Assembly (NCBI GenBank): GCA_009772965.1
Contig: WPAF01000001.1
Location: forward strand, 78,639 to 142,638
DNA from: Candidatus Saganbacteria bacterium
GTDB taxonomy: Bacteria > Margulisbacteria > WOR-1 > XYC2-FULL-46-14 > WPAF01
DNA: 64,000 nucleotides
Reading direction: 5' to 3'
Part shown: piece after piece, positions 10,745-41,803 of the stretch
How the letters are laid out: every line of letters begins with the position of its first letter
Numbering within the stretch: the stretch's first letter is position 1
Program-made: the position numbers and the translations under genes
The notes under the pieces: model-generated
Seen by the model: only the letters and a program-made list of their open reading frames with translations
The model's database searches: none
Told to the model about the DNA's origin: nothing

Positions 10745-10756
10745 GATGCAATATAT

Positions 10757-10845: not shown

Positions 10846-10854
10846 AGATTTTAT

Positions 10855-15776: not shown

Positions 15777-15796
15777 ACGCCTTCTCCTTCCTGATA

Positions 15797-18464: not shown

Positions 18465-18489
18465 TTATTATCATACCCCTTGATTTATC

Positions 18490-21123: not shown

Positions 21124-22654
21124 TTATTATCACCTTGGACTTTTCTCTTAGATCTTTTTTCAGCAGCTTTCCCGAATGGGTTTGAGGAATGCTTGCAACT
21201 ATTTCAATCACTTTGGGGAGTTTAAGCGCGGATAAATACTTTTTGCAGTGTTCCAATATTTCTTCCGATTCTATTAAACAATTATCTCTTAAGACAATAA
21301 AGCTCTTTATTTCCTCGCCAAAGAGGTCGTCGGGCATTCCTATTGTGGCCGCTTCTTTCACAGCTGGATTCAACAATAAAACCTCATCAATTTCGCCTGG
21401 CATTACATTGGATCCGCCTTTGATTATTAAATCTTTTTTCCTGTCAACAAAATAGTAAATCCCCTGCTCGTTTTTATAGCCCAAGTCGCCCGTATGGAAA
21501 AAGCCGTTCCTCATAACTTCTTTATATAATTTTTCATTCTTGTAATATCCCACAAAGACATTTGCTCCCTTAACTACAATTTCCCCAATTTCATTTGGAG
21601 ACAACTCCCGATCATTCTCATCAACAATTTTTACTTCGTTCACATCCAATGGGACGCCAATTCTGCCAGGCTCCCAATCGGGTTTTCGTGGATCATCGAT
21701 ATGAGTGGGCCCTGTTTCAGATAAACCATAAAGGTTTGCCGTTTTTAACCCGAATTTCTTCTCAAATTCAATTTGGATGCTTTTCTGTAGAGGTGCTGAC
21801 CCGCAGCCAACAAACTTCATAGAGGAGACATCACAACCTTTTGTATCTTGGTAGATATTCAAAATTGAATATAAAACCGTGGGTACCACCTCCATATAGT
21901 TAACGCGTTCTTTTTGAATCAGCTCCCAGATCCTGTTCCTTATCTGCCAAAATGATTCTGCTAAAATCATTTTTCCGCCAGCATACATGCAGGGTAAAAA
22001 AGAGTAGTTTGTGGAAGCGGTATGTCCTAAAGGAAGAAATACAAGATGTACTTCATTATCATTCATAAAATCAAAGCCGCGGCAAACGGAACTAATATCA
22101 GCGATCATATTCTTATGAGAGAACAATACCCCTTTAGGGTCGCCGGTGGTCCCGGAAGAATAATACAAACATGCGGGACAATTTTCGTCGATTTCCACCC
22201 TTGCCCGCAAACTATCCGCATGGACTTCTAAACTTTTTTCAAACAACCTTTCTTCCCCAACCGGGACTTCCACAAAACTCGCCCGTTCCCCCGCAAACTC
22301 ATTAAATCTTCTAGCATCCACCAACACAATGCTTGGGCCAACATAGCTGATATTTTTTTTCACTTCTTCCTTATGAGAAGTAAACGGCATAGGATTAAAT
22401 ATCGCGCCAATTCTTAGCGCGGCAAAATATAAAAAACAATACTCGGGCGAGTTTTCAATGAGCGCGGTAATTCTATCCCCTCTTTCTATCCCTTTTGAAA
22501 GCAAATAATTCGAGGCTTTTTCAACAATTAGATTGAATTCTTTAAAGTAGTAACATCTTCCAGAACGCACATCAGATATAAAAACCTTATCAGGATTTAT
22601 TCTACTTTGATAATAAAGAACTTCGGAAAAATTCTTACAATCTTTAAGTTCCAT
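21113..22654 (-). CDS. AMP-binding (adenylate-forming) acyl-CoA/ACP ligase
   Basis: 513 aa; LYYSSGTTGDPKGV AMP-binding motif, YGLSETG, C-terminal GK. Confidence 0.85.
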   Translation of the reverse strand: MELKDCKNFSEVLYYQSRINPDKVFISDVRSGRCYYFKEFNLIVEKASNYLLSKGIERGDRITALIENSPEYCFLYFAALRIGAIFNPMPFTSHKEEVKKNISYVGPSIVLVDARRFNEFAGERASFVEVPVGEERLFEKSLEVHADSLRARVEIDENCPACLYYSSGTTGDPKGVLFSHKNMIADISSVCRGFDFMNDNEVHLVFLPLGHTASTNYSFLPCMYAGGKMILAESFWQIRNRIWELIQKERVNYMEVVPTVLYSILNIYQDTKGCDVSSMKFVGCGSAPLQKSIQIEFEKKFGLKTANLYGLSETGPTHIDDPRKPDWEPGRIGVPLDVNEVKIVDENDRELSPNEIGEIVVKGANVFVGYYKNEKLYKEVMRNGFFHTGDLGYKNEQGIYYFVDRKKDLIIKGGSNVMPGEIDEVLLLNPAVKEAATIGMPDDLFGEEIKSFIVLRDNCLIESEEILEHCKKYLSALKLPKVIEIVASIPQTHSGKLLKKDLREKSKVIINER

Positions 22655-22659
22655 TATTT

Positions 22660-23067
22660 TTATTTCTTCTCCTTTTCAACAAGTTCAACTAGTTCTTTTT
22701 CAGATGTATAAAGCCAAACTGTTAATTGATCCTTGTGTCCTTTACCAGGAACAGGCTCCCCAAATATAAGAGAGCCCTTTGCCCTTAAGGTTTTAATTGC
22801 TTCATGTATATCATCAACCTCAAAACAAAGATGATGCAACCCTCCACCCTGTGACAGAAACTTACTCACAGGAGAATCTTCACTAACCGGTTTTATTAGC
22901 TCTATGGTTAAATCCCGCCCAAGGCCCATTTCCACAAAACAAACCTCCACCTTTTGGATTGGATCTATGACCGGCTCATCCAATTTTGAAAAGCCAAAAG
23001 TGCTTTTGTAGTATTCAACCGCTTCTTCTAAATTACTTACGACCTTACCAATATGATGCAATCTCAT
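22660..23067 (-). CDS. VOC-family protein (glyoxalase / methylmalonyl-CoA-epimerase-like)
   Basis: 135 aa; MRLHHIGKVVSNLEEAVEYY start typical of VOC/MCE fold proteins. Confidence 0.65.
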   Translation of the reverse strand: MRLHHIGKVVSNLEEAVEYYKSTFGFSKLDEPVIDPIQKVEVCFVEMGLGRDLTIELIKPVSEDSPVSKFLSQGGGLHHLCFEVDDIHEAIKTLRAKGSLIFGEPVPGKGHKDQLTVWLYTSEKELVELVEKEKK

Positions 23068-24054
23068 TTAAAATATCTCCGTCGAATCACCCATGGTAAA
23101 ATACCAACTTTTTTTATCTTTAACTTCACCCGCATATTTAAATTCTTTGTTTAAACGAATAACAAGAGGAATTCTCGTAGCTTCCTTAATAAATCCTTTG
23201 CCTTCTAAGACCTGCTCGATGAGCCGACTGCCCCATAGCCAACAGGTAACCTCATCAACCTTTTGTTCGCTAAAAAAGCTTAAAGAACCATTAATAATCT
23301 TGGTTATGGTATCTTCATCATGAAGATCAGCAAAAATATCTATTATATGTCCCCTTAAAAGCTTATCCTCTCTATACAGCTTCAAAACCGAATAACCCTT
23401 AAGCTCACCATTAGCATAAACTCCAAATGGATAATACTTCCAATCTGGCCTTTCCAAATATCGCCAATTTAAATAAGCTTTATTTCTAACAACTACAATC
23501 TTATACTTTTCGGAACATAAATCCCAAAGCCGATCAAAATCATCATCAAATTCCTTGACCGGACGGAAAGAAGCTGAATCAGTAATATTTAACGTGCTTT
23601 TATCTATGGCCGGTCTTGTTATTTTCCAGGTATCAAACTCAATCAGATCCTCATATCCCATATGAGTTCTATGCACACGATAAGCTTTTTCATTTGGGAA
23701 ACCATATGTAAAAGGAATATTATTTTGTGCTGCCTCTTCGAATAATTTATCACCAACAAATTTCAACAGTCCCCTATTCTGATATTTTGGTTCGACCATA
23801 GCACCTATTGAATGTGAAGCGACCAATTCCTCATCAAAAACTTGCAGTCGATAAGGAACAACAGCAAAATGGGCAACAATATTATTTCCTTCTTCCATAA
23901 CCCAAATAAATGATTTTCCTGCCGGATTCTGATCGGAATACTTCCAGTACCAATTACTTAATTCCCTTCTATTCCAGGGATGTACTTCTAATCTTCGATC
24001 TAATTCCCAAAGTTTTATTTCGTCGCCTTCTTTATAGAGCCGTATTTTCATCAT
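23068..24054 (-). CDS. Hypothetical protein, possible FemAB/CelD-like GNAT-fold acyltransferase
   Basis: 328 aa; region ...AMVEPKYQNRGLLKFV weakly resembles the GNAT motif A. Weak call. Confidence 0.35.
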   Translation of the reverse strand: MMKIRLYKEGDEIKLWELDRRLEVHPWNRRELSNWYWKYSDQNPAGKSFIWVMEEGNNIVAHFAVVPYRLQVFDEELVASHSIGAMVEPKYQNRGLLKFVGDKLFEEAAQNNIPFTYGFPNEKAYRVHRTHMGYEDLIEFDTWKITRPAIDKSTLNITDSASFRPVKEFDDDFDRLWDLCSEKYKIVVVRNKAYLNWRYLERPDWKYYPFGVYANGELKGYSVLKLYREDKLLRGHIIDIFADLHDEDTITKIINGSLSFFSEQKVDEVTCWLWGSRLIEQVLEGKGFIKEATRIPLVIRLNKEFKYAGEVKDKKSWYFTMGDSTEIF

Positions 24055-25107
24055 TTATTCCAACATGCCTTCTTGAATTACATCTTCTTTATCAATATCT
24101 ACTTTTACTTTTCTGCCAACAATCAAGCCCAGATTCTTTGGTTCAATTCCGGTTCCAGGCCTGGTCATTTTTAGTTTCTCCCGACTCAACTGCTCACCTT
24201 TATTGATCCTGCATCTGGCTACAATACTTCTTCTTATTATCTTTCTGGCATCCAATTCCGCTTGAGACAAATTTCTTTGATAAGAGCCTAACGATTTTTC
24301 AACTTCTCTCACTGCTCTCACAAGTTCCTGCATGCCACTTGGTTCAAGTGCAAAAGGATGATCTGGACCTTCCATCTTTCGATCAAGAGTTATATGTTTT
24401 TCAATAATGCAGGCTCCCAAAGCTATGGAAGCCATTGCCATATAGTTATCAGGGCTGTGGTCAGAAAACCCTACCGGTAATCCAAAAGTCTTAATCAAGG
24501 TTACGATGTTCTTAAGATTTACCACTTCGGGATTGGGAGGATAACAAGATACGCAATGAAGCAGAGCAATTTGATCGTTTCCGTTCCTTAATATGGTTTC
24601 TACCGCTTCTTCTATTTCCCGTAAATAAGACATGCCGGTAGACAAAATAATAGGCTTTTTAAATTTAGCCAGCTCGCCTAAAAAATCCAAATAAGCAACA
24701 TCTATAGAAGCAATCTTAAAAACCGGAGGATCGAACTGCATGATAAACTCAGCATCCTTAATTGAGTGGACAGTAGAGAAAACATCCAATTCTTTATCCC
24801 TTGCATATTCAAACATTTCCTTAAACCATTCCCGCGGCATCAAAATCCGGTCTCTGGCAACCTCCCACCATGGCTGGTAGCCATAGTCCTTTTCATAGGC
24901 AACGTCACGGGTTGTAATTTTGCCGCTGAATACTTCTAATGGTTCATAAGTTTGGAACTTTATAGCATCAAAACCTGCATCCGATGCAGTATCAATCATC
25001 TTTCTGACAATTGTCTTGTCTAAATTATGATTAGAGCCTATCTCTGCAATAATATAGGTTGGATATTCTGGCTCGATTATTTTTTTATTGATCATTATTT
25101 TTTTCAT
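24055..25107 (-). CDS. Nonulosonic acid synthase (NeuB/PseI/LegI family; PEP condensing enzyme with SAF domain)
   Basis: 350 aa; YIIAEIGSNHN...AIKFQTY NeuB signature and C-terminal SAF-like region. Confidence 0.85.
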   Translation of the reverse strand: MKKIMINKKIIEPEYPTYIIAEIGSNHNLDKTIVRKMIDTASDAGFDAIKFQTYEPLEVFSGKITTRDVAYEKDYGYQPWWEVARDRILMPREWFKEMFEYARDKELDVFSTVHSIKDAEFIMQFDPPVFKIASIDVAYLDFLGELAKFKKPIILSTGMSYLREIEEAVETILRNGNDQIALLHCVSCYPPNPEVVNLKNIVTLIKTFGLPVGFSDHSPDNYMAMASIALGACIIEKHITLDRKMEGPDHPFALEPSGMQELVRAVREVEKSLGSYQRNLSQAELDARKIIRRSIVARCRINKGEQLSREKLKMTRPGTGIEPKNLGLIVGRKVKVDIDKEDVIQEGMLE

Positions 25108-25120: not shown

Positions 25121-26128
25121 TCATTTCAATACTTCTTCTACTGCTTTTTTAATGTCTACGACTTGCGGCAAAACTGCATCTTCTAAAATTTTAGTATTTG
25201 CTATCGGCACATTTTTGGCGGCTACTCTTTTAACTGGTGATTCCAATAATTCAAAACCATCATTTATTACTTGGGCTGCCATCTCAGCGCCCCATCCATT
25301 AAACAATGTCCCTTCTTCAACAATAACAAGTCTTCCTGTCTTTTCGACTGATTCCAATATTTCTGGCATAGATGCTTTATTAATATAACTGGGAACAATT
25401 ATTTCCGAAGTGACCTCATCTTCCAATAGCAATTCATTCAACGCAACCGTCACCCAAGGTAACATACCACCATAGGTCAAAACTGTCACTTGATGTTCTT
25501 TAAAATCATTATTCGACAAAATAATGGTCTCATATTCATCTTTACTTTTTCTGGCAGAATAATCAAAAATATGTCCGTTCTCTAATTCATCAATTTCCCG
25601 GGTGTACAAAACCTTGTTTTCAATAAAAAGAACCGGATCATTATCTTCAATCGCCTTGATTAGCTGCTCACCAGGATCATGAAAGTGACTGGGCGCAATA
25701 ATCTTTAATCCTGGAATGCCTAAAAACAACTTTTCCAGAGTTTGACTGTGGGTGGGGCCATAGCCTCTACGCCCCCCCATGGGAGTCCTGATAACCATGG
25801 GAACTGTTACTTTCCCTTTATACATCCAACCAAATTTTGTTGCATGATTAATAAGTTGATCGGCACATAATGTCAAAAAATCCCCAAACATTATCTCAAG
25901 TATCGGTCTTATTCCCCTCATTGCTAAGCCAGCAGCTAAGCCAGTCAATGCCCATTCGCTCATGGGAGTATTTATAACTTGATCGGGATATTTCGTTGAC
26001 AAACCTTTTGTTATTTTAAAAGCTCCTCCATAAGGGTCACAGACATCTTCCCCAAGGAGGATAACATTCTTGTCTTTCTTTAATTTATAATCTAATGCCT
26101 GACTAATTGATTGTGCATAGGTAATCAT
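25121..26128 (-). CDS. ThDP-dependent 2-oxoacid dehydrogenase E1 beta-like subunit, pair 3
   Basis: 335 aa; ..NTPMSEWALTGLAAGLA.. transketolase-like pyrimidine-binding domain. Confidence 0.8.
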   Translation of the reverse strand: MITYAQSISQALDYKLKKDKNVILLGEDVCDPYGGAFKITKGLSTKYPDQVINTPMSEWALTGLAAGLAMRGIRPILEIMFGDFLTLCADQLINHATKFGWMYKGKVTVPMVIRTPMGGRRGYGPTHSQTLEKLFLGIPGLKIIAPSHFHDPGEQLIKAIEDNDPVLFIENKVLYTREIDELENGHIFDYSARKSKDEYETIILSNNDFKEHQVTVLTYGGMLPWVTVALNELLLEDEVTSEIIVPSYINKASMPEILESVEKTGRLVIVEEGTLFNGWGAEMAAQVINDGFELLESPVKRVAAKNVPIANTKILEDAVLPQVVDIKKAVEEVLK

Positions 26129-26723
26129 TTAATTTCCTCTCCAGACAAATCTCAACTTCATTCGCTGAGTATTTATATCCCTCTTTCCCCAACGAAGTTA
26201 AAAAATCCTCGTGTTTTCTTTTAAGACGATAAGCAGGTTCCTTTGAGGGATGTTTCAAATATTTATTAATAATTTCCATTCTCGGGTTAATAAGCAAGGA
26301 GCCCTGATAAAAAAGAAGTTTTTGTTCTCTATACATCGAAGAACCTAAAATTTTATTTTCATTTATGCAGATATCTGATATACCCTTTTTACTCAAACCA
26401 TCAATATTTAAATCCCTAAGCCCTTGAACTATTAATTCATTTATCTGATTGAAATATAATTGATTGCCAAAATCACTCTCTACGAATTTAGCAATAGAAA
26501 TTATCAATACCCCTTCAGTTAGAACCACCGCACCACCACCACCCAACCTCCTTAATATCTTAATGTTGTCTTTTTTGGCTCTGCTAACAAAAACCTCAAT
26601 TTCCGGTTTGTTTGCCCTACCTAGAACGATAACAGTATCGAGTGCTGCCCAAATCCTAATCCTGTATTTCCCATCTTTCTTAACCAGTCCTATCATATCT
26701 TTCATATCTTTGTTAAAATTCAT
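26103..26723 (-). CDS. Short lipoate-protein ligase / octanoyltransferase family protein (BPL_LplA_LipB catalytic domain)
   Basis: 206 aa; RRLGGGGAVVLTEG resembles the LplA/LipB RRxxGGGAV motif. It sits between the E1alpha and E1beta genes. Confidence 0.6.
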   Translation of the reverse strand: MNFNKDMKDMIGLVKKDGKYRIRIWAALDTVIVLGRANKPEIEVFVSRAKKDNIKILRRLGGGGAVVLTEGVLIISIAKFVESDFGNQLYFNQINELIVQGLRDLNIDGLSKKGISDICINENKILGSSMYREQKLLFYQGSLLINPRMEIINKYLKHPSKEPAYRLKRKHEDFLTSLGKEGYKYSANEVEICLERKLNDYLCTIN

Positions 26724-27631
26724 TGAAATAACCCCTCATAGATGCTATCAATTTTTGGAAAATCAGCTTTACTAGCTTTTTCTACAGCTGATTCTATTCT
26801 ACTTGCACACTTTTCACGTATTGAATTTTTTACATCTTTATCCAAACGAGCCCCTAAAATGGTCAGAGGGTCTTTATCTTTCCATCCTATTTCTTCTTCC
26901 CTGGTTCTATAATTACAATCATCGCTTTTACTGTGTCCACACTGTCGATAAGTATTTATAACTAAAAAATGCGGCCTTGACTGCTTTCTAACACCATCGG
27001 CAATCTTTTCAAAAGAGGAATAAATTACTTCAACATCGTTTGTATTCAATTCTTGTGCTTCTATGCCAAAAGCTTTTGCCCGATCAATCATGCTCCCTGC
27101 CACTCCACAGGAAATATGCGTGCTCATTGCATAATAATTATTTTCTAAAACATACACTATAGGCAGTTTCCAAAGTGAAGCCATATTTAAAGATTCATAA
27201 AGCACTCCTTCGCCTAAAGCTCCGTCACCAAAAAAAGATATTACAATTCTCTCGCTTTTCTTCAATTTTTCAGCCAATGCCATTCCGGTCGCAACTGCGG
27301 TCATACCGCCGGTAATTCCGTTGGCATAAAAATCCCCTTTGCATAAATGCTGACTCCCGCTGCGTCCCGCACATATCCCCGTAGCTTTTCCCATAAGTTC
27401 AGCCATTAATCCATCAACATCATCTGTAGAAGCAATAAAATGACCATGCCCCCTATGATTACTGGTAATAATATCGCCTTCGTTCATTGCCTGAGTTATG
27501 CCAACAGCAACAGCTTCTTGGCCGATACAAGCATGGGTGGTTCCAAAAAGTATCCCTTGAGTAAAAAGTTCTTCTATCTTTTCTTCAAAAAGTCTGATTA
27601 AAAGCATTTGCTCAAAGAATTTTTTTCTCAT
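26720..27631 (-). CDS. ThDP-dependent 2-oxoacid dehydrogenase E1 alpha-like subunit, pair 3
   Basis: 303 aa; GQEAVAVG...NHRGHGH and FFGDGALGEGVLYESLN..LENNYYAMST motifs as in PDH E1alpha. Confidence 0.8.
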   Translation of the reverse strand: MRKKFFEQMLLIRLFEEKIEELFTQGILFGTTHACIGQEAVAVGITQAMNEGDIITSNHRGHGHFIASTDDVDGLMAELMGKATGICAGRSGSQHLCKGDFYANGITGGMTAVATGMALAEKLKKSERIVISFFGDGALGEGVLYESLNMASLWKLPIVYVLENNYYAMSTHISCGVAGSMIDRAKAFGIEAQELNTNDVEVIYSSFEKIADGVRKQSRPHFLVINTYRQCGHSKSDDCNYRTREEEIGWKDKDPLTILGARLDKDVKNSIREKCASRIESAVEKASKADFPKIDSIYEGLFQ

Positions 27632-28725
27632 TTACGTTTCCCTATAATTTTCCCAGGGACTCCTTCCACAACAGAATTATCCGGAATATCTCTTGTCACA
27701 CTACTTCCGACACCGATAATTACCTTGCTGCCAATTTTAACTTTCGTTGAAATACAGGCACCAATACCAACAATAGTTTGATTCCTAATTTCAATATTAC
27801 TGCCCAGAGAAACTCCCGGAGCCAAGTGACAGCCTTCTTCGATTATGTTGTCGTGCGCTATCATTACTCCGTTATCAATAATACAGCAGTCTCCGATAAT
27901 AGTGTTTGTCTCAATAATTGCCCCCGCTTTAATAAAAACCCCCTCGCCCAAAGTTACCGAAGGCGCAATAAAAGCTTTAGGATGTACAACATTAATATAC
28001 TTTAATCCAAAATTTTTCAGTTTTCCCCTTAGATTTAATCTGAATTCTGAATTTGCGATCTCTGAAGCTACTCCGACAACTCCATTCTTCTTTATTTCTT
28101 CTAACCGATCGCCACTTAAACATTGAATCCCTTCCACCTCAGAACCAATGTTGGGGTTGTCATCAATAAAATAGCCCACTTCGTATCCCCCCATTAGTTC
28201 TACGCATTCCTTAATCGTTAATCCCCCACGACCTGCGCCATAAATTGCAATGCGTTGCTTGTGATTAGTTTTCTTCTTCTCAATAAAAGCTTTTATGTCT
28301 TTCTCTCTTATAATTCCGATTTTTTCTACGCTAGAAATATTTATTCCCAATGAATCAGCCAAAGCCCTTGCTTTATTTGTTATCTTTTTTTTCGCAACAA
28401 AAACATTTTTTGTTGTGTCTGCAACCTTTTCATTGTTCTCTTGAACAGAAACAGGGATTTCATAATCGCAAGAATCGGAGATATAACCAATGGTATCTCT
28501 GATTCTAATTTGCTCTCCAGCCATGGCCTTCATAAAAATAAACCCAGATTCTTCTGCTGTTAATTCTGTTGCGACTTTAGTTGTTTCAATAATACATATT
28601 GGGTCACCTTTACTCACTTTTGCTCTGTCGCTAACAAGCCATTCAACAAGCATAGCAAAATCATCATTAACCCCCAGTTGAGGAATTTTAATTTCGTAAA
28701 CAGCATGCATTATATTACCTTCCAA
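27628..28725 (-). CDS. Fusion protein: N-terminal lipoyl (biotinyl/lipoyl hybrid) domain + PglD/NeuD-family left-handed beta-helix sugar N-acyltransferase
   Basis: 365 aa. Residues about 10-85: IKIPQLGVNDDFAMLVEWLVSDRAKVSKGDPICIIETTKVATEL...GEQIRI has a lipoyl-domain layout with candidate lipoyl-Lys in ETTKV. The remainder, IAIYGAGRGGLTIKE...hexapeptide repeats...VPGKIIG, is NeuD/PglD-like. Confidence 0.7.
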   Translation of the reverse strand: MEGNIMHAVYEIKIPQLGVNDDFAMLVEWLVSDRAKVSKGDPICIIETTKVATELTAEESGFIFMKAMAGEQIRIRDTIGYISDSCDYEIPVSVQENNEKVADTTKNVFVAKKKITNKARALADSLGINISSVEKIGIIREKDIKAFIEKKKTNHKQRIAIYGAGRGGLTIKECVELMGGYEVGYFIDDNPNIGSEVEGIQCLSGDRLEEIKKNGVVGVASEIANSEFRLNLRGKLKNFGLKYINVVHPKAFIAPSVTLGEGVFIKAGAIIETNTIIGDCCIIDNGVMIAHDNIIEEGCHLAPGVSLGSNIEIRNQTIVGIGACISTKVKIGSKVIIGVGSSVTRDIPDNSVVEGVPGKIIGKRK

Positions 28726-28746: not shown

Positions 28747-29757
28747 TTAGTTGCATGTTGTTTTGTCGAATTTTTCTAAGATTTGAGTAGCAACTCTGCT
28801 GCTTCCTATTCCATCTACATATTTTTTCCCAATCTCACTTGCTTCTTTTCTTATTTGCTGACTCCTCAATTCATCAAAACAATTTTTTACATTTTCAAGA
28901 AAGCGGGAGTCGTTATACCACCCTGCATATTTCATAAAACCAACTTCAGACCATCCCTTAAGATTCATCTCTTGATTATCAGCCACACAAATGCCAATTG
29001 CTGGCGTGCCAGTAACTGCCAGCTCAAAAGTGGTTTGTCCGCCCGCAGAAATTGCAATGTCACAGCTAAGCATTAAATCCCGCATTGCTTCGGCGCCAGG
29101 CTTAAAAATAAATCTTACCTTTTTGTTATTTTTATATTCATCCATATAATCAGTATTTATAAAACCCCAACCAATAACTACATTTAAGGTACAATCAAAA
29201 TTATTTAAAAGTAGTTCCATTATACGTGGGGTCGAGTTATTTGCATCATCCCCCCCAAAAGTTATAAGGACATTATTTATGTCTTTTTTTATAATTCGAT
29301 CATATGGCTTACAAAATTCTCTTCTTAAAAACGCATATTCAGAACCCAAAAGATAGATTATGTCCTCTTTTTCGGGATAACTAAACTTTCTAGCACAAAC
29401 CGATCCGTTGAGCACAATGCCAGACGGATAGTTAATTCGGTTAAAATCATCCAAACATACTAAAAGCTTAACCATTTTAGAAAGCCCTATATATTCCTCT
29501 GCTTTCATCTTATATGAATCTATTACTAACACATCTATCCCTTTTACCAGTTCGCTGGTACGCTCATAAGCATTTTGCCAATCAAAAGTAAAATGTTTAA
29601 TTACATTCTTAAACTGCCCCAAGACACTTTCATCAGAATTAACAATAAAAAATGGTTTTGCCCCTCTTTTTTCAAGCTCATAATACAAAGAAAGACAACG
29701 CATAATATGCCCAAAACCAATACCCTTTCCACCCTCAGTGCGGATTGCAATCTTCAT
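28747..29757 (-). CDS. pseG: PseG-like UDP-sugar hydrolase (UDP-2,4-diacetamido-2,4,6-trideoxy-hexose hydrolase family)
   Basis: 336 aa; N-terminal RTEGGKGIGFGHIMRCLSL matches the PseG signature (..GxGHxMRCLxLA). Confidence 0.7.
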   Translation of the reverse strand: MKIAIRTEGGKGIGFGHIMRCLSLYYELEKRGAKPFFIVNSDESVLGQFKNVIKHFTFDWQNAYERTSELVKGIDVLVIDSYKMKAEEYIGLSKMVKLLVCLDDFNRINYPSGIVLNGSVCARKFSYPEKEDIIYLLGSEYAFLRREFCKPYDRIIKKDINNVLITFGGDDANNSTPRIMELLLNNFDCTLNVVIGWGFINTDYMDEYKNNKKVRFIFKPGAEAMRDLMLSCDIAISAGGQTTFELAVTGTPAIGICVADNQEMNLKGWSEVGFMKYAGWYNDSRFLENVKNCFDELRSQQIRKEASEIGKKYVDGIGSSRVATQILEKFDKTTCN

Positions 29758-30482
29758 TTTTGTGCCTCCGGAATCAGTTTTCTATTTAAAACATATTCTA
29801 ATAAATAGAAATCTTCTTCATGATCAACTTCTAATATATAAGGGAAATCATGGATAAACGGCATTATTCTTCCCATGTAAAAATGCCCGTCTATTTGAGG
29901 TATGGATTCATCCATCAAGACTTTTGTTTTAATCGCCTGCACTGATCCATCATGCATATACGTCTTTGGCATTTCCTGCGTTCTAAAACGCAATACCATG
30001 GGTTTTTCTCTGAATTCTAAGAGATCTCCTCGAATAATTTTCATTGATTCCGGATGTTGATCTGCTTCGAAAACAGTAGACACGGTATCTGTTTTTTCAA
30101 AATTATCGATCAATTTTTTAATGACCCGATCAACCAATCCCTTTTCCCTAAAAGGAACATTGGGCTGCAACCAAACCACGATATCGGGAAGCCAACCTTC
30201 TGATCTTTCAATTTCTTTAACCGCATGCCTTAGAGCAAAATAAATGGGGGCTTCATCAGTGGCATACTCAATCGGGCGCATAATACACTTAACCCCTTCT
30301 TTTAGAGCTATCACAGCAATTTTTTCATCATCGGTAGAGACTACGCTTATAGCAACACTTTGTGCTTCTTGCGCATCCCTTATTGTATAAGCAATCAATG
30401 GGATGCCATTCAAAAGTCGAATATTCTTATTTTTTACGCGTTTACTTCCGCCCCGTGCAGGAATAACACATAAAGTTTTCAT
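29754..30482 (-). CDS. CMP-nonulosonic acid synthetase (acylneuraminate cytidylyltransferase family, PseF/NeuA-like)
   Basis: 242 aa; CVIPARGGSKRVKNKNIRLLNGIPLIAYTI. Confidence 0.8.
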   Translation of the reverse strand: MKTLCVIPARGGSKRVKNKNIRLLNGIPLIAYTIRDAQEAQSVAISVVSTDDEKIAVIALKEGVKCIMRPIEYATDEAPIYFALRHAVKEIERSEGWLPDIVVWLQPNVPFREKGLVDRVIKKLIDNFEKTDTVSTVFEADQHPESMKIIRGDLLEFREKPMVLRFRTQEMPKTYMHDGSVQAIKTKVLMDESIPQIDGHFYMGRIMPFIHDFPYILEVDHEEDFYLLEYVLNRKLIPEAQK

Positions 30483-31852
30483 GCAATTTTCTCCATTTTT
30501 GTATGTCTTTTTGTATTCCAGGCCTTTAATTCTTTTATCATATCTTCTCTAATTTCAAACAACTCCTCATTTGACCAATGGGTAAAATTGACCAATATTT
30601 GCTCTCCCTGCTCCCACAATTTACAAATATACTCAAATTCATTTTGGATCAGCCCTTTTTTTAACGCATAATCATATAATTCCGTCCCTGGGTAGGCTGT
30701 TGCAAAGAATATGGCTTCAGGGATAAAATCAATATCTTTACAAAACCCAACTGTCTCTCGGATTGTTTCTTTGGTTTCCCCTGGTAATCCAAGGACAAAT
30801 GTCCCCCCCACCTCGCCAAACACTTCCCGCGTAAGTTTAATGGCATTCTTGGTTTGCTCAACCGTAACATTTTTTTTCATCAGATCAAGCATCTTCTGGC
30901 TGCCGGACTCAATCCCATAACCAACCATATTACAACCCACTTCTTTCAAGTTTTGCAAAACTTCTTTATCTACCAAATTAACCCTGCCCGCAAAACAAAA
31001 TTGAAACCCCGGCTTTTCCTTTCTCATTAAGCCGCAAAAATCATCAATAAACCTTCGGTTGATCATTGATTCATCATCTGCCCAAATAAAATAAGTAACG
31101 CCATAATGCTCATTTAAAAAGCGCATCTCTTTTAAAACATATTCCGGCGAATGATGCCGATACCCTGCTCCCATAAAATCGTGATAGCAAAAAATACACT
31201 TATACGGGCATCCCCGAGTAACATTAATATTTGTTGACTTAGGCACGCCCGATTCAACCTGCTTCCCGTCTGCCCACTTATTCTTATTAATATGTCCAAC
31301 CGGATTGTTAACATAGATATCCATGGGGAATAGGTCATAAGCGGGCAAGGGGATAGCATCTAAATCGGCAATTGGTTTTCTCGCTGGTTTTTTTATAATT
31401 TTGCCGTCTTCACCTTTATAGTAGATCCCGGCCACGTTACCTAAATTGTCATTTTTGCTTATTGCATTTACAATTTCAACAATTGTAATTTCTCCCTCAC
31501 CGATACAAGCAATATCAGCTTGAGTGTTAGCTAAAATAAGTTCCGGAATAGAAGTGGAAACTCCTCCTCCTAAAATAATCTTCGCAGCGGGGCGATATTT
31601 TTTTATGGCTGCCACTAGCCATGTAATATATTTGGCGGTGGTCACAATTCCACCCGTACCTACAATATCATATTGCAGGCTCTGCAATTTATCCTCAACC
31701 TGTTCTTTTGTGTAACGAAAAGCATTGATATCTAATACTCCAACTTCATGTCCCGCTTCCCGCAAAACACTTGCCAGATAAGCCAACCCCAGGGGAACGC
31801 AATTTGGCGCAGCCCATTCCCTAATGGGTGGATTGATCAACAAAACCTTCAT
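30479..31852 (-). CDS. B12-binding domain radical SAM enzyme
   Basis: 457 aa; CPYKCIFC motif; N-terminal B12-binding-like domain (MKVLLINPP...). Confidence 0.75.
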   Translation of the reverse strand: MKVLLINPPIREWAAPNCVPLGLAYLASVLREAGHEVGVLDINAFRYTKEQVEDKLQSLQYDIVGTGGIVTTAKYITWLVAAIKKYRPAAKIILGGGVSTSIPELILANTQADIACIGEGEITIVEIVNAISKNDNLGNVAGIYYKGEDGKIIKKPARKPIADLDAIPLPAYDLFPMDIYVNNPVGHINKNKWADGKQVESGVPKSTNINVTRGCPYKCIFCYHDFMGAGYRHHSPEYVLKEMRFLNEHYGVTYFIWADDESMINRRFIDDFCGLMRKEKPGFQFCFAGRVNLVDKEVLQNLKEVGCNMVGYGIESGSQKMLDLMKKNVTVEQTKNAIKLTREVFGEVGGTFVLGLPGETKETIRETVGFCKDIDFIPEAIFFATAYPGTELYDYALKKGLIQNEFEYICKLWEQGEQILVNFTHWSNEELFEIREDMIKELKAWNTKRHTKMEKIA

Positions 31853-38525: not shown

Positions 38526-39495
38526 TAAAGCCTCTCTGTTCCTGAATGATAAATTGGGGGGTTTGGTTGCTGGACAAAAACAAACGTCCCAAGTATTCGC
38601 CGATGACACCCAGAATAATAAGTTGAATCCCGGAAAACATAAAAATCGAAATTACTATTGTAGCCCAACCTGTGGGAGCTGTTGGATGAAAAATTTTATC
38701 TATTAGAAATATAATTGCCAAAATAAAACCTACTAAGGCGAAAAACAAACCTATGAGCATTGAAATTCTCAAGGGCAGAACAGAAAAATTGGTAAACATG
38801 TTCAACCAGAGGGAAACCAGTTTCCTGAATGTGTAACCGGATTCTCCCCTGAGACGCCTCCTATGCTCAACTTGAACCGTCCCAATATTCATGGTGCTCC
38901 TAAAAATCAGACCGTCAATATAAGGATATGGACCGCGATATTTTATAATCTCATTGATTAAAACCCGGCTAAAGATTTTAAAACTGCATAAATAGAGTCC
39001 CCTGGGTTTTTTCAATAGTATGGTCGCAACTCGATCGTTAAAAGCGCTGCCGAGATTCCGAAAAAAGCTGTGCTTCTTGACTTTATAATTTGCAAAGACT
39101 ACATCATAGCCCTTGTTGATCTCATCGATCAGTTTGGGTATTTCCTCCGGTGGATTTTGGCCATCGTCATCCATCACAATGGCAAAATCGCCCCGGACAT
39201 ATTTTAATCCTGCAATAACCGCATTATGTTCGCTAAAATTACGCGTGAGTTTTAAGATTTTAATTTTAGGATCAGCCGCATTGAGTTTTTTCATCACTTG
39301 CCATGAGTTATCCCGACTCCCGTCATTCACCAGGATAATTTCATAAGCCAGCCGCAATTTATTAAAAACCGCATTTACACTCAAGCAAACATCTTCCAGC
39401 ATCTGTTCACTATTATAAACCGGCATGACTATTGAATATTTCGGTGCTTCAATCACATTTCTCACATCCACTTTCGATCCGTTCGCAAACATCAC
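38506..39495 (-). CDS. GT2-family polyprenyl-phosphate glycosyltransferase (GtrB/ArnC-like)
   Basis: 329 aa; YSIVMPVYNSEQ...NDGSRDNS GT2 motifs and C-terminal hydrophobic helices, as in bactoprenol-P glucosyltransferases. Confidence 0.75.
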   Translation of the reverse strand: MMFANGSKVDVRNVIEAPKYSIVMPVYNSEQMLEDVCLSVNAVFNKLRLAYEIILVNDGSRDNSWQVMKKLNAADPKIKILKLTRNFSEHNAVIAGLKYVRGDFAIVMDDDGQNPPEEIPKLIDEINKGYDVVFANYKVKKHSFFRNLGSAFNDRVATILLKKPRGLYLCSFKIFSRVLINEIIKYRGPYPYIDGLIFRSTMNIGTVQVEHRRRLRGESGYTFRKLVSLWLNMFTNFSVLPLRISMLIGLFFALVGFILAIIFLIDKIFHPTAPTGWATIVISIFMFSGIQLIILGVIGEYLGRLFLSSNQTPQFIIQEQRGFNDNIKS

Positions 39496-40609
39496 GAAGC
39501 TTAGCTATAACGTAATCCTGCTGCTCATCGGTCATTTTCGGATACATCGGTATTGACAAGCATTTTCTATAATATTTTTCCGCATTTGGACATAGCCCGC
39601 GCTCGTAACCGAGGCTCTGATAATACGGCTGTAAATAAACCGGTAAATAATGCACATTCACCAAAACACCAAAACTTCGCATAAAATCAAATACTTTCCT
39701 TCTGTTTTCAACCGAAACAACATAAAGATGATAAGAGGACAATACTTCTTGAGTTTCTTCAAATATATTAATTTCAGAAGAATCTTTAAAAGCATTAGTA
39801 TATTTCTTGGCTATTTTCCTTCTCCTTTCAACAAATTTATCGAGTTTTTTTAGCTGACTCATACCCAGCGCGCACTGAAAATCTGTCATCCGATAGTTCA
39901 ACCCTAATTCGTGCATCTCATAATACCAATCGCCTCCATTTTGATTTTTCATTATTTTTGGATCTCTCGTAATTCCATGCGTTCTAAACATCAAAAGCTT
40001 CTCATAATAGACTTCGTTATTTGTCAGGAGCATTCCACCCTCGCCCGTTGTTATATTTTTTACTGCATGAAAGCTTAAAACCGTCATATCCGAATACTTG
40101 CAGACCCCGATTTTTGATCCTTTGTATTCGGCGCCAAGAGCATGGCTGGCATCTTCAATTATCAACAGATCATTTTTTTCGGCAATTGCTTTTATCTCTT
40201 CAAGATCACAAGGTTGGCCAGCAAAATGGACTGGGATAATTGCTTTGGTTTTATTGGTTATTTTCTTCTTAATATTTTTTGGATCAATATTAATAGTGTC
40301 TTCTTGGATATCAGCAAATACCGGTCTGCCCCCGCAATACAAAATACAATTAGCCGAAGCGACAAAAGTAATAGGGGAAGTAATTACTTCATCTCCGGTT
40401 TTTATTCCGGCGGCAAAACAAGCCGCATGCAATGCAGCGGTTCCGGAACTAACTGCTACCGCATATTTAACTCCGCAATATTTTGCAACCTTTTTCTCAA
40501 ACTCGGCTATTCTGGAGCCTTGTGTTAGGTAATCCGAACGTAGCGCCCCAATCACCGCCTTGACATCTGTGCCATCAATCCATTGCATCGCGTAGGGAAT
40601 TTGCTTCAA
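39449..40609 (-). CDS. pseC: PseC-like DegT-family aminotransferase (UDP-4-keto-6-deoxy-hexose aminotransferase)
   Basis: 386 aa; ...LTQGSRIAEFEKKVAKYCGVKYAVAVSSGTAALH...GDEVITSPITF. Confidence 0.75.
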   Translation of the reverse strand: MKQIPYAMQWIDGTDVKAVIGALRSDYLTQGSRIAEFEKKVAKYCGVKYAVAVSSGTAALHAACFAAGIKTGDEVITSPITFVASANCILYCGGRPVFADIQEDTINIDPKNIKKKITNKTKAIIPVHFAGQPCDLEEIKAIAEKNDLLIIEDASHALGAEYKGSKIGVCKYSDMTVLSFHAVKNITTGEGGMLLTNNEVYYEKLLMFRTHGITRDPKIMKNQNGGDWYYEMHELGLNYRMTDFQCALGMSQLKKLDKFVERRRKIAKKYTNAFKDSSEINIFEETQEVLSSYHLYVVSVENRRKVFDFMRSFGVLVNVHYLPVYLQPYYQSLGYERGLCPNAEKYYRKCLSIPMYPKMTDEQQDYVIAKLRDVCERIESGCEKCD

Positions 40610-40613
40610 AGAT

Positions 40614-41803
<1,190 letters not shown>

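What the first reader, a model, noticed from the sequence alone, without database searches (positions are those of the whole stretch)
25121..28725. 2-oxoacid-dehydrogenase-like module wired to a sugar N-acyltransferase: lipoyl-domain/NeuD fusion + E1 alpha/beta + lipoate ligase, no E2 core or E3
In a canonical Pse or Leg pathway the 4-amino sugar is acetylated by an acetyl-CoA enzyme (PseH GNAT or PglD/NeuD-type). Here the NeuD-family left-handed beta-helix transferase carries an N-terminal lipoyl-type swinging-arm domain (candidate Lys in ETTKV). It is translationally coupled to E1 alpha (ThDP GDG..NN motif), a short LplA/LipB-family ligase (RRLGGGGAV) and E1 beta. This reads as a minimal PDH-like complex. 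E1 would decarboxylate a 2-oxo acid (pyruvate, hydroxypyruvate, 2-oxobutanoate...) and reductively acylate the lipoyl arm. The fused transferase would then deliver the acyl group to a nucleotide-sugar amine instead of CoA. No E3 gene is in the window. I am not aware that this route of N-acyl diversification of nonulosonic acids has been described.
Basis: partly seen in the sequence, partly recalled or inferred. Interest (0 to 1): 0.9.

Follow-up and report, generated by a model that had tools for sequence, protein, structure and literature searches.

The report
Lipoyl-arm sugar N-acyltransferase with E1
In a pseudaminic-acid gene cluster of an uncultured Saganbacteria genome, a sugar N-acyltransferase carries the swinging lipoyl arm and docking domain of a pyruvate-dehydrogenase E2 and always sits next to an E1 enzyme, which suggests an undescribed, coenzyme-A-independent way of putting acyl groups on bacterial surface sugars.

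Summary
They sit inside a Pse cluster that has PseB, PseC and PseG (above curated cut-offs) plus sub-threshold PseI- and PseF-like genes, but no PseH. The window has no E2 core and no E3.

The fusion is not an artefact. At least 118 of the top 120 homologues share the architecture, and 320 clusters at 50% identity match the lipoyl–PSBD module. E1α/β lies adjacent in 15 of 17 fusion loci against 0 of 20 plain-NeuD loci (p≈1e-8), across about ten phyla, all MAGs. Natural variants support a functional unit: a split form, single-chain E1αβ, an in-operon LplA in one subclade, and a second lipoyl–PSBD–LβH family flanked by PIG-L deacetylases.

Best reading (0.65): E1 reductively acylates the lipoyl arm and the LβH domain transfers the acyl group to a nucleotide-sugar 4-amine without CoA. 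Acyl identity, lipoylation and arm re-oxidation are untested. I found no prior description. Verdict: new variant of a known kind, high interest.

The parts
27628..28725 (-). Gene for the lipoyl-PSBD-NeuD/PglD-type LbH N-acyltransferase fusion (365 aa from the TTG; the probable start is the ATG at 28710, giving 360 aa)
   Evidence: ORF. Pfam and NCBIfam hits. 100% identical 360-aa database protein P0001 and more than 118 homologues with the same architecture. AF2 mean pLDDT 89.
28471..28710 (-). Lipoyl domain (aa 1-80 of the 360-aa form), an eight-stranded barrel
   Evidence: Biotin_lipoyl E 2.6e-9. The family profile hits E2p lipoyl domains at 4e-23 to 1e-8. pLDDT about 90.
28576..28578 (-). 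Codon of the candidate lipoyl-lysine (K45; motif IETTKV)
   Evidence: Invariant in 26 of 26 sequences. ET(T/S)K occurs in 106 of 150 representative clusters. The residue lies in the hairpin turn between strands 37-42 and 47-51. The codon was checked.
28387..28470 (-). Flexible linker (aa 81-108), variable in length and sequence between homologues
   Evidence: pLDDT below 50 for residues 88-106. These columns are unconserved and gapped in A1.
28261..28386 (-). Peripheral-subunit-binding domain (PSBD/E3_binding-like; aa 109-150; 'ITNKARALADSLGINISSVEKIGIIREKDIKAF')
   Evidence: T111, A114 and E136 are invariant. The N-terminal profile aligns through the PSBD of E. coli E2p 7b9k and hits isolated PSBD structures: 1w4i at 7.2e-5, 8oqj and 9h1n at 1.5e-3. 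The model has two helices, 112-121 and 136-149. The single-sequence Pfam E3_binding hit is only E 0.11. Pfam does call PF02817 in the type-2 relative P0236.
27631..28260 (-). PglD_N nucleotide-sugar-binding domain plus left-handed beta-helix acyltransferase domain, with the catalytic His in 'MIAHDN'
   Evidence: TIGR03570 at 169.3 bits, above the 160.8 cut-off. PerB 4ea7 at E 1.6e-29, with the query His aligned to the residue mutated in the H141N and H141A structures. Foldseek to PerB gives TM 0.92 and rmsd 1.4 A over 207 columns. H286 is invariant.
26720..27631 (-). ThDP-dependent E1 alpha subunit (303 aa), with GDG...NN motif and 'GHS' His
   Evidence: E1_dh 4.7e-59. TIGR03182 at 286 bits, below the 394 cut-off. 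Human PDH E1alpha at 2.3e-43 against BCKDH at 1e-26. ATGA overlap with the fusion gene.
26103..26723 (-). LplA/LipB-superfamily protein, catalytic domain only (206 aa)
   Evidence: LplA-B_cat 3.7e-25. The RRLGGGGAV motif is present and the Lys aligns with E. coli LplA K133. 100% identical to a Candidatus Saganbacteria MAG protein. The same fusion-E1alpha-LplA-E1beta order occurs in L039.
25121..26128 (-). E1 beta subunit (335 aa)
   Evidence: Transket_pyr and Transketolase_C. NF006667 at 238.7 bits, below the 321 cut-off. PDB PDH and BCKDH E1beta at about 1e-50. The 'THSQ' His is conserved.
28747..29757 (-). PseG (UDP-sugar hydrolase), immediately upstream of the fusion; pathway context
   Evidence: TIGR03590 at 167 bits, above the 153.55 cut-off.
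24055..25107 (-). NeuB/PseI-like nonulosonic acid synthase, immediately downstream of E1beta; pathway context
   Evidence: NeuB 8.2e-78. TIGR03586 PseI at 295.7 bits and TIGR03569 at 316 bits, both below cut-off.
39449..41588 (-). PseB (40614-41588) and PseC (39449-40609), which make the UDP-4-amino-4,6-dideoxy-AltNAc that is the likely acyl acceptor
   Evidence: TIGR03589 at 544 bits (cut-off 408) and TIGR03588 at 523 bits (cut-off 423.5).

Best explanation
This is a compact, CoA-independent acyl-transfer machine that borrows the logic of 2-oxo-acid dehydrogenase complexes.

Proposed mechanism:
1. The E1alpha/beta heterotetramer (ThDP) docks on the PSBD of the fusion protein.
2. E1 decarboxylates a 2-oxo acid, or cleaves a related ThDP substrate, and reductively acylates the lipoyl-lysine (K45). 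That lysine is carried on a swinging arm with a roughly 28-residue disordered linker.
3. The S-acyl-dihydrolipoyl arm enters the acyl-donor site of the protein's own (presumably trimeric) NeuD/PglD/PerB-type LbH domain, in place of acyl-CoA.
4. The conserved His deprotonates the 4-amino group of a nucleotide sugar, which attacks the thioester. Here the sugar is most likely UDP-4-amino-4,6-dideoxy-beta-L-AltNAc from PseB and PseC. This is the PseH step, for which the window has no canonical enzyme.
5. PseG, the PseI-like synthase and the PseF-like enzyme then carry the product on to a CMP-pseudaminic acid with the E1-derived acyl group on N7.
6. The operon-encoded LplA-like protein installs the lipoyl (or octanoyl) group on the unusual ET(T/S)K domain.
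7. The dihydrolipoyl arm must be re-oxidised by an enzyme encoded elsewhere, such as a housekeeping E3 or another disulfide oxidoreductase.

Shown here: the domain architecture, the conservation of the key residues, the synteny and the pathway context.

Inferred: lipoylation, reductive acylation, acyl transfer to the sugar, which amine is acylated, and the acyl identity. The acyl group is probably not acetyl, because related cassettes pair a PIG-L de-N-acetylase with a lipoyl-LbH transferase.
For: Architecture. The protein has a lipoyl domain, a disordered linker, a PSBD, PglD_N and an LbH domain. K45 and the catalytic His are invariant. The His aligns with PerB His141.

Linkage. E1alpha/beta is adjacent in 15 of 17 fusion loci against 0 of 20 plain-NeuD loci, Fisher p=1.5e-8. 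The loci span Omnitrophota, Hydrogenedentota, Planctomycetales, Synergistia, Nitrospiraceae, Magnetococcales, Pseudomonadales, Rhodospirillaceae, Bacteriovoracaceae, Chloroflexi and Saganbacteria.

Rosetta-stone variants:
- L011 has NeuD alone, then E1alpha, E1beta and a stand-alone 145-aa lipoyl-PSBD protein in one operon.
- E1alpha and E1beta are fused into one chain in L003, L006, L009, L012 and L016.
- The LplA-like gene sits between E1alpha and E1beta in the window and in L039.
- A second lipoyl-PSBD-LbH family lies directly after E1alpha-E1beta in L005, L042, L043 and L044, each time with a PIG-L deacetylase.

Translational coupling by ATGA overlaps.

Pathway hole. PseB, PseC and PseG are above cut-off, and PseI-like and PseF-like genes are present. 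No PseH was found in the ORFs scanned. The fusion lies between PseG and the synthase.

Regiochemistry. Its structural relatives PerB, PglD, VioB and WeeI all acylate C4 amines of 4,6-dideoxyhexoses according to their PDB titles.

No ACP or E2 core is conserved in the cassette.

Precedent. QncN/QncL/QncM use an E1-like enzyme and a lipoyl domain to deliver a C2 acyl unit into biosynthesis (PMC6335953, citing Peng et al. 2012).
Against: - There is no biochemical evidence for any step.
- No E3 occurs in the window or within 8-10 kb of the match in the 44 fetched loci, so turnover depends on an unidentified oxidant.
- The E1 sequences do not distinguish this pair from the two lipoyl-less E1 pairs in the same window. 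Both catalytic His residues are kept in all three pairs, and scores against PDH E1 models are similar.
- One full-length fusion locus (L004) has no E1 within 10 kb.
- The LplA-like protein lacks the accessory domain that E. coli LplA has and is absent from most loci.
- A 328-aa GNAT (23068-24054) could instead be the PseH-step enzyme.
Confidence: 0.65

Rival explanations
1. Same machine, ordinary product. E1 is a plain pyruvate decarboxylating E1 and the module simply N-acetylates the sugar, taking acetyl directly from pyruvate instead of acetyl-CoA.
For: E1alpha is closest to PDH-type E1alpha: TIGR03182 at 286 bits, and human PDH E1alpha at 2e-43 against BCKDH at 1e-26. Canonical Pse carries N-acetyl at this position.
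Against: E1alpha and E1beta both score below the PDH equivalog cut-offs. In L005, L042, L043 and L044 a PIG-L de-N-acetylase sits beside a lipoyl-LbH transferase served by the same E1. Removing an acetyl group only to put it back would be futile. A three- or four-gene module that duplicates what acetyl-CoA plus a small PseH achieves is hard to rationalise.
Confidence: 0.2
2. The LbH domain is an alternative E2 core. It passes the acyl group from the lipoyl arm to CoA (or to an ACP), and a separate transferase then uses the resulting acyl-CoA or acyl-ACP. Alternatively, the LbH domain still uses acyl-CoA as donor and the lipoyl-PSBD part only tethers E1.
For: The NeuD/PglD family binds CoA thioesters, as shown by structures solved with CoA or acetyl-CoA. 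The window has an ACP (15549-15776) and an AMP-ligase. QncL delivers its acyl group to an ACP (PMC6335953).
Against: The nucleotide-sugar-binding PglD_N domain and the catalytic His are conserved across the family, which argues that the sugar amine is still the acceptor. ACP homologues are absent from 15 of 16 other cassette loci. In the window and in L037 the ACP lies 6-9 kb away, beside other acyl-activating genes. No separate NeuD or PseH is conserved next to the cassette.
Confidence: 0.12
3. The E1 pair is an AviB1/AviB2-type carboligase that adds a two-carbon branch to a keto-sugar carbon. The lipoyl domain is vestigial or serves another purpose.
For: AviB1/AviB2-like E1 pairs are proposed to attach a C2 branch from pyruvate to sugars (PMC4753412). 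The window itself carries two lipoyl-less E1 pairs beside sugar dehydratases and epimerases. Sequence features do not separate them from the fusion-linked pair.
Against: The following are all unexplained by a lipoyl-independent carboligase:
- the invariant lipoyl Lys and the conserved PSBD;
- a stand-alone lipoyl-PSBD gene kept in the split operon;
- a lipoate-ligase gene inserted between E1alpha and E1beta;
- the strict association of this E1 clade with lipoyl-bearing transferases.
The fusion-linked E1s share 63-75% identity with one another but only 30-35% with the orphan pairs.
Confidence: 0.08
4. The N-terminal domain is a biotinyl carrier or an assembly/frameshift artefact.
For: Pfam PF00364 covers both biotinyl and lipoyl domains.
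Against: There is no (A/V)MKM motif. The profile scores E2 lipoyl domains far above BCCP, 4e-23 against 6e-7. A PSBD, an E1 and an LplA accompany it. More than 100 independent assemblies encode the same continuous ORF.
Confidence: 0.01

Closest known systems
E2 (dihydrolipoyl acyltransferase) of pyruvate, 2-oxoglutarate, branched-chain 2-oxo-acid and acetoin dehydrogenase complexes
   Same: Both have an N-terminal lipoyl domain with the lysine at a hairpin tip, a flexible linker and a PSBD. Both have an adjacent, co-transcribed heterotetramer-type E1alpha/beta. From general knowledge of LbH enzymes and E2 cores, both catalytic modules are probably trimeric.
   Different: The CAT-fold 2-oxoacid_dh catalytic core (DHRxxDG) is absent and is replaced by PglD_N plus an LbH domain. 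The inferred acceptor is a nucleotide-sugar amine rather than CoA. No E3 lies in the locus. The lipoyl motif is ET(T/S)K rather than DKA. The context is glycan biosynthesis, not central catabolism.
NeuD/PglD/PerB/VioB/WeeI family of LbH sugar N-acetyltransferases
   Same: The C-terminal 210 residues pass the TIGR03570 cut-off, superpose on PerB at TM 0.92, and keep the catalytic His and the PglD_N nucleotide-binding domain. The gene lies in a nonulosonic-acid cluster at the N-acylation step.
   Different: All characterised members are stand-alone proteins of about 200 aa (or fused to a glycosyltransferase, as in PglB) that use acetyl-CoA. None is known with a lipoyl arm, a PSBD or an obligate E1 partner.
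QncN/QncL/QncM (and SclQ1-4, NapB/D) glycolicacyl-ACP-forming system of tetrahydroisoquinoline and scleric-acid biosynthesis
   Same: A PDH/transketolase-like ThDP E1 plus a lipoyl domain is diverted from primary metabolism. It generates an acyl unit and hands it into a biosynthetic pathway (PMC6335953, citing Peng et al. 2012 PNAS 109:8540).
   Different: Qnc keeps a canonical E2 acyltransferase domain and delivers the acyl group to a dedicated ACP for an NRPS. Here the transferase is an LbH sugar N-acyltransferase, no ACP is part of the cassette, and a PSBD is present.
AviB1/AviB2 (Pau11/Pau12) E1-like pairs of branched-octose biosynthesis
   Same: Both are E1alpha/beta-like genes embedded in deoxysugar gene clusters and thought to use pyruvate (PMC4753412).
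   Different: Those pairs have no lipoyl partner and are proposed to form a C-C bond on the sugar. They resemble the two orphan E1 pairs in this window (1544-3552, 6573-8551) rather than the fusion-linked pair.

Membership tests
2-oxo-acid dehydrogenase E2 (dihydrolipoyl acyltransferase) | Lipoyl domain with a modifiable Lys at the tip of a beta-hairpin | tested here: met
   PF00364 at E 2.6e-9. The profile hits E2p lipoyl domains at up to 4e-23. K45 is invariant and lies in the turn between strands 37-42 and 47-51.
2-oxo-acid dehydrogenase E2 (dihydrolipoyl acyltransferase) | Peripheral-subunit-binding domain between the lipoyl domain and the core | tested here: met
   The family profile aligns through the PSBD of 7b9k and 9y7v and hits isolated PSBDs: 1w4i at 7.2e-5, 8oqj at 1.5e-3. 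The model shows two helices. Single-sequence Pfam is only E 0.11.
2-oxo-acid dehydrogenase E2 (dihydrolipoyl acyltransferase) | CAT-fold catalytic core (PF00198, DHRxxDG) | tested here: not met
   There is no PF00198 hit. No DHRxxDG motif occurs in any real ORF of the window or the 44 loci. The core is PglD_N plus LbH instead.
2-oxo-acid dehydrogenase E2 (dihydrolipoyl acyltransferase) | Cognate E3 (dihydrolipoyl dehydrogenase) | tested here: not met
   No Pyr_redox_2/dim protein and no CxNxGC motif in the window or the loci. The rest of the genome was not available.
NeuD/PglD/PerB LbH sugar N-acyltransferases | Family HMM above the curated cut-off, with PglD_N and hexapeptide LbH domains | tested here: met
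   TIGR03570 at 169.3 bits against a 160.8 cut-off. PF17836 and PF00132 both hit.
NeuD/PglD/PerB LbH sugar N-acyltransferases | Catalytic His general base and family fold | tested here: met
   The His in 'MIAHDN' aligns with the PerB residue mutated in the H141N and H141A structures and is invariant. Foldseek gives TM 0.92 and rmsd 1.4 A to PerB.
NeuD/PglD/PerB LbH sugar N-acyltransferases | Acyl-CoA as acyl donor | not testable with these tools
   This needs enzymology. The hypothesis here is that acyl-dihydrolipoyl-lysine replaces acyl-CoA.
Heterotetrameric ThDP-dependent E1 (PDH/BCKDH/acetoin type) | E1_dh alpha and Transket_pyr/Transketolase_C beta subunits, the GDG...NN ThDP motif, and the alpha-'GHS' and beta-'HSQ' His residues | tested here: met
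   The motif 'GDGALGEG...LENN' is read directly from the sequence.
Heterotetrameric ThDP-dependent E1 (PDH/BCKDH/acetoin type) | Equivalog-level match to pyruvate dehydrogenase E1 (substrate assignment) | tested here: not met
   TIGR03182 at 286 bits, below 394. NF006667 at 239 bits, below 321. The substrate is therefore unassigned.
LplA/LipB lipoate/octanoate protein ligase-transferase superfamily | Catalytic domain with the RRxxGGGxV motif and the catalytic Lys | tested here: met
   PF21948 at 3.7e-25. The Lys aligns with E. coli LplA K133.
LplA/LipB lipoate/octanoate protein ligase-transferase superfamily | C-terminal accessory domain (or an LplB partner) of bona fide LplA ligases | tested here: not met
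   The protein is 206 aa and ends with the catalytic domain. TIGR00545 scores 76 bits against a 280 cut-off. No LplB-like gene was seen in the cassette.
QncN/QncL/QncM-type glycolicacyl-ACP system | Dedicated ACP and an E2-type acyltransferase domain fused to the lipoyl domain | tested here: not met
   There is no E2 core. An ACP is present only in the window and in L037, 6-9 kb away, and is absent from the other 15 cassette loci.
AviB1/AviB2-type sugar C-branching E1 pairs | E1alpha/beta without any lipoyl-bearing partner; C-C bond formation on a keto-sugar | tested here: not met
   A lipoyl-PSBD partner is adjacent or fused in 15 of 17 loci. The chemistry itself cannot be tested here.

The most novel reading that the evidence does not exclude
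These cassettes define an unrecognised class of 2-oxo-acid-dehydrogenase-like complexes. The E2 core has been replaced by an LbH sugar acyltransferase, in at least two independent LbH types. A ThDP enzyme then makes an unusual, non-acetyl acyl group (for example glycolyl, glyceroyl, lactyl or propionyl) directly from a 2-oxo acid. A lipoyl swinging arm delivers that group to the N7 (NeuD type) and N5 (type 2 plus PIG-L) amines of nonulosonic acids and to other amino sugars, without any CoA or ACP intermediate. The class is widespread in uncultivated phyla.
Probability: 0.5. Interest if true: 0.88.

Novelty: new variant of a known kind. Interest (0 to 1): 0.8.

Why it matters
If the mechanism holds, it extends the lipoyl swinging-arm paradigm beyond its known roles: central metabolism, glycine cleavage, acetoin catabolism and one natural-product ACP-loading system. 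Direct tailoring of nucleotide sugars would be added to that list.

It would also be, to my knowledge, the first LbH acyltransferase to take its acyl group from a protein-bound dihydrolipoyl thioester rather than from CoA or ACP.

It offers a concrete, testable route to the puzzling diversity of N-acyl groups on pseudaminic and legionaminic acids. These sugars shape flagellar assembly, phage and immune recognition, and surface charge.

The small, self-contained cassette (E1alpha/beta plus one fusion protein, with or without LplA) could also serve as a tool for chemo-enzymatic synthesis of N-acyl-modified nonulosonic acids from cheap 2-oxo acids.

Finally, it shows that candidate-phylum MAGs (Saganbacteria, Omnitrophota, Hydrogenedentota and others) hold enzyme architectures not seen in the cultured-organism records searched here.

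Tried and rejected
1. I recalled PDH-like ORFs in the Legionella pneumophila LPS (legionaminic acid) locus. Two papers on that locus contain no mention of pyruvate dehydrogenase, lipoyl or acetoin, so the recollection was wrong and I dropped it.

2. An AP_endonuc_2 gene lies next to the cassette in L005, L037 and L039. I tested it as a Hyi/OtnI-type isomerase, which would have pointed to hydroxypyruvate or 2-oxo-tetronate as the E1 substrate. NCBIfam shows only weak Nfo/CbiR-like hits, so the lead was rejected.

3. I tried to separate the fusion-linked E1 from the two orphan E1 pairs in the window by the catalytic His residues and by scores against PDH E1 models. Neither discriminates.

Combinations of lipoyl with NeuD, PglD, nonulosonic, pseudaminic or legionaminic gave nothing relevant. 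The one hit, PMC4875605, uses 'lipoyl' loosely for fatty acylation. The primary QncN/L paper (Peng 2012) is not held.

5. A geometric test of whether K45 can reach the LbH active site was not possible, because model coordinates are not exposed to scripts. Only the linker-length argument remains.

6. Single-sequence Pfam gave only E 0.11 for E3_binding. The PSBD call rests on the family profile.

7. A QncM-like ACP as a cassette component was rejected, because only one of 16 other loci has a homologue and it is distant from the cassette.

Full report
**1. Observation**

The finding's coordinates are exact. Four minus-strand ORFs occupy 25121-28725:
- a 365-aa ORF at 27628-28725 (TTG start). The ATG at 28710 gives the 360-aa form, which is identical to database protein P0001;
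- E1alpha at 26720-27631;
- a 206-aa LplA-like protein at 26103-26723;
- E1beta at 25121-26128.

The junctions fusion/E1alpha and E1alpha/LplA both overlap as ATGA. LplA/E1beta overlap by 26 nt.

Pfam and NCBIfam confirm the domains:
- fusion: Biotin_lipoyl (2.6e-9), PglD_N (2.8e-6) and Hexapep (2.3e-12), plus TIGR03570 NeuD at 169.3 bits, above the 160.8 cut-off;
- E1alpha: E1_dh at 4.7e-59;
- E1beta: Transket_pyr and Transketolase_C;
- LplA-like protein: LplA-B_cat at 3.7e-25.

The LplA-like protein is 100% identical to a protein of a Candidatus Saganbacteria (WOR-1) MAG on a 183-kb contig, which identifies the source organism.

**2. Anatomy of the fusion**

I aligned 26 full-length homologues (38-56% identical). 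The invariant residues are E42 and K45 (the ET(T/S)K motif), T111, A114 and E136 in a conserved block 'ATxKARxLAxxLGVDLxxI..GIIRExDV', and the His of 'AHDN'.

That His aligns with the residue mutated in the PerB H141N and H141A crystal structures.

A profile of the N-terminal 150 residues alone aligns across lipoyl domain, linker and PSBD of E. coli E2p (7b9k, E 3.9e-23) and of an actinobacterial E2. It also hits isolated PSBD structures: 1w4i at 7.2e-5, and 8oqj and 9h1n at 1.5e-3. BCCP biotinyl domains score only 6e-7, and there is no MKM motif.

AlphaFold2 gives mean pLDDT 89 and shows:
- a beta-barrel at residues 1-80, with K45 in the turn between strands 37-42 and 47-51;
- a disordered linker at 88-106;
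- two helices at 112-121 and 136-149;
- the PglD_N and LbH domains.

The C-terminal part superposes on PerB with TM 0.92 and rmsd 1.4 A.

The protein is therefore an E2 in every respect except its catalytic core, which is a NeuD/PglD/PerB-type sugar N-acyltransferase. It matters because in E2 proteins it is the E1/E3-docking element (established knowledge of PDH complexes).

**3. Not an artefact, and not rare**

At least 118 of the 120 best database hits have the same architecture at about 360-390 aa.

I ran an exhaustive HMMER search with only residues 1-195, so that strong hits must span the fusion junction. It finds 320 representative clusters (50% identity) at E<=1e-10. Among the best 150:
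- 87 are the size of NeuD-type fusions;
- 19 are a longer second type;
- 28 are short (stand-alone modules or fragments);
- only one has an E2-core motif.

The lipoyl motif is ET(T/S)K in 106 of the 150 and the canonical ETDK in 5.

**4. Genomic linkage**

A scan of one genome per GTDB species returned 36 NeuD-family loci, all from MAGs.

Full-length fusions occur in Omnitrophota, Hydrogenedentota, Planctomycetales, Synergistia, Nitrospiraceae, Magnetococcales, Pseudomonadales, Rhodospirillaceae and Bacteriovoracaceae. Chloroflexi and the Saganbacteria window add to this list through other look-ups.

E1alpha and E1beta are adjacent in 15 of 17 fusion loci. The exceptions are one contig-end case (L007) and one locus with no E1 within 10 kb (L004). 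None of the 20 plain-NeuD loci has an E1 pair. Fisher p=1.5e-8.

Natural variants act as Rosetta stones:
- **Split form.** In L011 (Omnitrophota) the operon reads PseG, NeuD alone, E1alpha, E1beta, a stand-alone 145-aa lipoyl-PSBD protein, then NeuB.
- **Fused E1.** In five Hydrogenedentota and Nitrospiraceae loci E1alpha and E1beta form one polypeptide next to an ArnC-like GT2.
- **In-operon LplA.** L039 repeats the window's order fusion-E1alpha-LplA-E1beta. More distant members of the roughly 203-aa LplA family sit in unrelated contexts.
- **Second fusion family.** A lipoyl-PSBD module fused to a different LbH transferase (about 480-530 aa, roughly 60 clusters) lies directly after E1alpha-E1beta in L005, L042, L043 and L044. 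A PIG-L de-N-acetylase is beside it every time. In L043 Pfam itself calls the E3_binding domain. In L005 and L044 both fusion types share a single E1 pair.

No locus contains a canonical E2 core or an E3. An ACP is not a conserved component.

**5. Pathway context in the window**

The cassette lies in a glycan locus of about 44 kb (roughly 700-44,800), bounded by Wzz- and Wza-like genes.

The Pse pathway genes are:
- PseB: 544 bits, cut-off 408;
- PseC: 523 bits, cut-off 423.5;
- PseG: 167 bits, cut-off 153.6;
- a NeuB/PseI-like synthase and a PseF-like cytidylyltransferase, both below cut-off.

No PseH-family protein was found among the ORFs scanned. The fusion sits between PseG and the synthase.

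Its solved relatives PerB, PglD, VioB, WeeI and the PglB acetyltransferase domain act on 4-amino-4,6-dideoxyhexoses according to their PDB entries. The most economical assignment is the PseH step: N-acylation of UDP-4-amino-4,6-dideoxy-beta-L-AltNAc, which becomes N7 of Pse. A 328-aa GNAT at 23068-24054 is an alternative candidate for that step.

**6. Mechanism**

Best explanation (confidence 0.65):
1. E1 docks on the PSBD.
2. E1 decarboxylates a 2-oxo acid and reductively acylates the lipoyl-K45 arm.
3. The S-acyl-dihydrolipoyl arm substitutes for acyl-CoA in the LbH active site.
4. The conserved His activates the sugar amine.

The linker of about 28 disordered residues, plus the lipoyl-lysine itself, is long enough in principle to span a PerB-sized trimer.

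The LplA-like protein keeps the RRxxGGGAV motif and the Lys that aligns with E. coli LplA K133, but it lacks an accessory domain. It would charge the non-canonical lipoyl domain.

The acyl group is unknown:
- E1alpha is nearest to PDH-type E1 but scores below the equivalog cut-offs.
- The recurrent PIG-L-plus-transferase pairing argues that the acyl group is not acetyl. This is an inference.
- A Hyi/OtnI lead towards hydroxypyruvate failed.

The main unresolved problem is re-oxidation of the dihydrolipoyl arm, because no E3 is encoded nearby.

**7. Rivals**

- **(a) Same machine, plain acetyl from pyruvate (0.2).**
- **(b) The LbH domain passes the acyl group to CoA or an ACP, or still uses acyl-CoA (0.12).** The conserved PglD_N domain and catalytic His, and the lack of a conserved ACP, weaken this.
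- **(c) An AviB1/B2-type carboligase with an irrelevant lipoyl domain (0.08).** E1 sequence features cannot exclude it. It leaves the invariant Lys, the PSBD, the split lipoyl-PSBD gene and the embedded LplA unexplained.
- **(d) Biotinyl domain or artefact (0.01).**

**8. Comparison with what is known, and novelty**

- It works like an E2/E1 sub-complex but fails E2 membership on the catalytic core and on E3.
- Its C-terminal half is a bona fide NeuD/PglD family member. The family's defining donor, acetyl-CoA, is exactly what is in question.
- The nearest functional precedent is QncN/QncL/QncM (and SclQ1-4). There an E1-like enzyme and a lipoyl domain deliver a glycolyl unit to an ACP through a canonical E2 domain (PMC6335953, citing Peng et al. 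2012).
- AviB1/AviB2 are lipoyl-less E1 pairs proposed to branch sugars (PMC4753412). They resemble the two orphan E1 pairs elsewhere in this window.

NCBIfam (June 2026) has no model for the fusion. Source names are 'hypothetical protein', 'biotin/lipoyl attachment protein' or 'NeuD family'. Ten full-text searches found no description. The library lacks most subscription journals, so absence is not proof.

I rate this a new variant of a known kind, with high interest (0.8).

Noticed in passing
window 6573-8551 and 1544-3552 (minus strand): Two further E1alpha/E1beta pairs have no lipoyl partner and share 30-35% identity with the fusion-linked pair. They lie beside an NDP-sugar 4,6-dehydratase-like gene (8552-9541), a GDP-fucose-synthase-like gene (5576-6622), an SDR (9545-10477) and a KedN5-like B12 radical-SAM C-methyltransferase (3573-5579). 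They are candidates for AviB1/B2-type two-carbon branching of a keto-sugar.
   Followed up: partly
L005:7771-9306; also L042:8001-9488, L043:8001-9590, L044:8001-9548: A second family fuses the lipoyl-PSBD module to a different LbH transferase (about 480-530 aa, roughly 60 clusters). It always follows E1alpha-E1beta directly and always has a PIG-L de-N-acetylase beside it. In L043 (Binatia) the four-gene cassette lies outside any nonulosonic-acid context.
   Followed up: partly
L011:9998-13070: A natural split version of the system in an Omnitrophota chromosome: NeuD alone (213 aa), E1alpha, E1beta, then a stand-alone 145-aa lipoyl-PSBD protein, flanked by PseG and NeuB.
   Followed up: yes
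L003, L006, L009, L012, L016 (e.g. L006:4168-6168): In Hydrogenedentota and Nitrospiraceae MAGs E1alpha and E1beta are fused into one polypeptide of about 650-800 aa. In L003, L012 and L016 it follows an ArnC-like polyprenyl-phosphate GT2 rather than NeuB-type genes, which suggests the cassette also serves amino sugars other than nonulosonic acids.
   Followed up: partly
window 15549-24054 (minus strand): A separate acyl-activation sub-cluster: ACP (15549-15776), B12 radical-SAM (15797-17212), class-III aminotransferase (17205-18464), TIGR04325 methyltransferase (18490-19317), PdxA-like dehydrogenase (19304-20347), IMPase-like phosphatase (20344-21123), acyl-CoA/AMP ligase (21113-22654), methylmalonyl-CoA-epimerase-like VOC protein (22660-23067) and a 328-aa GNAT (23068-24054). 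It probably makes a second, different acyl decoration.
   Followed up: partly
window 3573-5579, 15797-17212, 30479-31852, 34148-35725: One glycan locus holds four B12-binding radical-SAM enzymes, which is unusually many and implies extensive C-methylation or similar tailoring.
   Followed up: no
window 13599-14300: A PIG-L/BshB-like de-N-acetylase lies in the same locus, about 11 kb from the cassette. Homologues sit right next to the fusions in L005 and L008.
   Followed up: partly
window 10474-11820: An HTH_17 (excisionase-like) 77-aa ORF and the only plus-strand gene of the region (radical SAM/SPASM, 10855-11820) interrupt the co-directional array, next to a local GC rise (0.44-0.46 at 6-10 kb against about 0.37). 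This may be a seam between acquired modules.
   Followed up: no
window 31849-34131: A 760-aa polytopic membrane protein between the Pse genes has no Pfam or NCBIfam hit. It may be a novel glycan polymerase or transferase.
   Followed up: no
L037:14959-17035: An FkbH_N-domain protein (595 aa) followed by an 81-aa ACP homologue lies downstream of the cassette in the closest relative's locus. This may be a glyceryl-ACP route to another N-acyl group.
   Followed up: no
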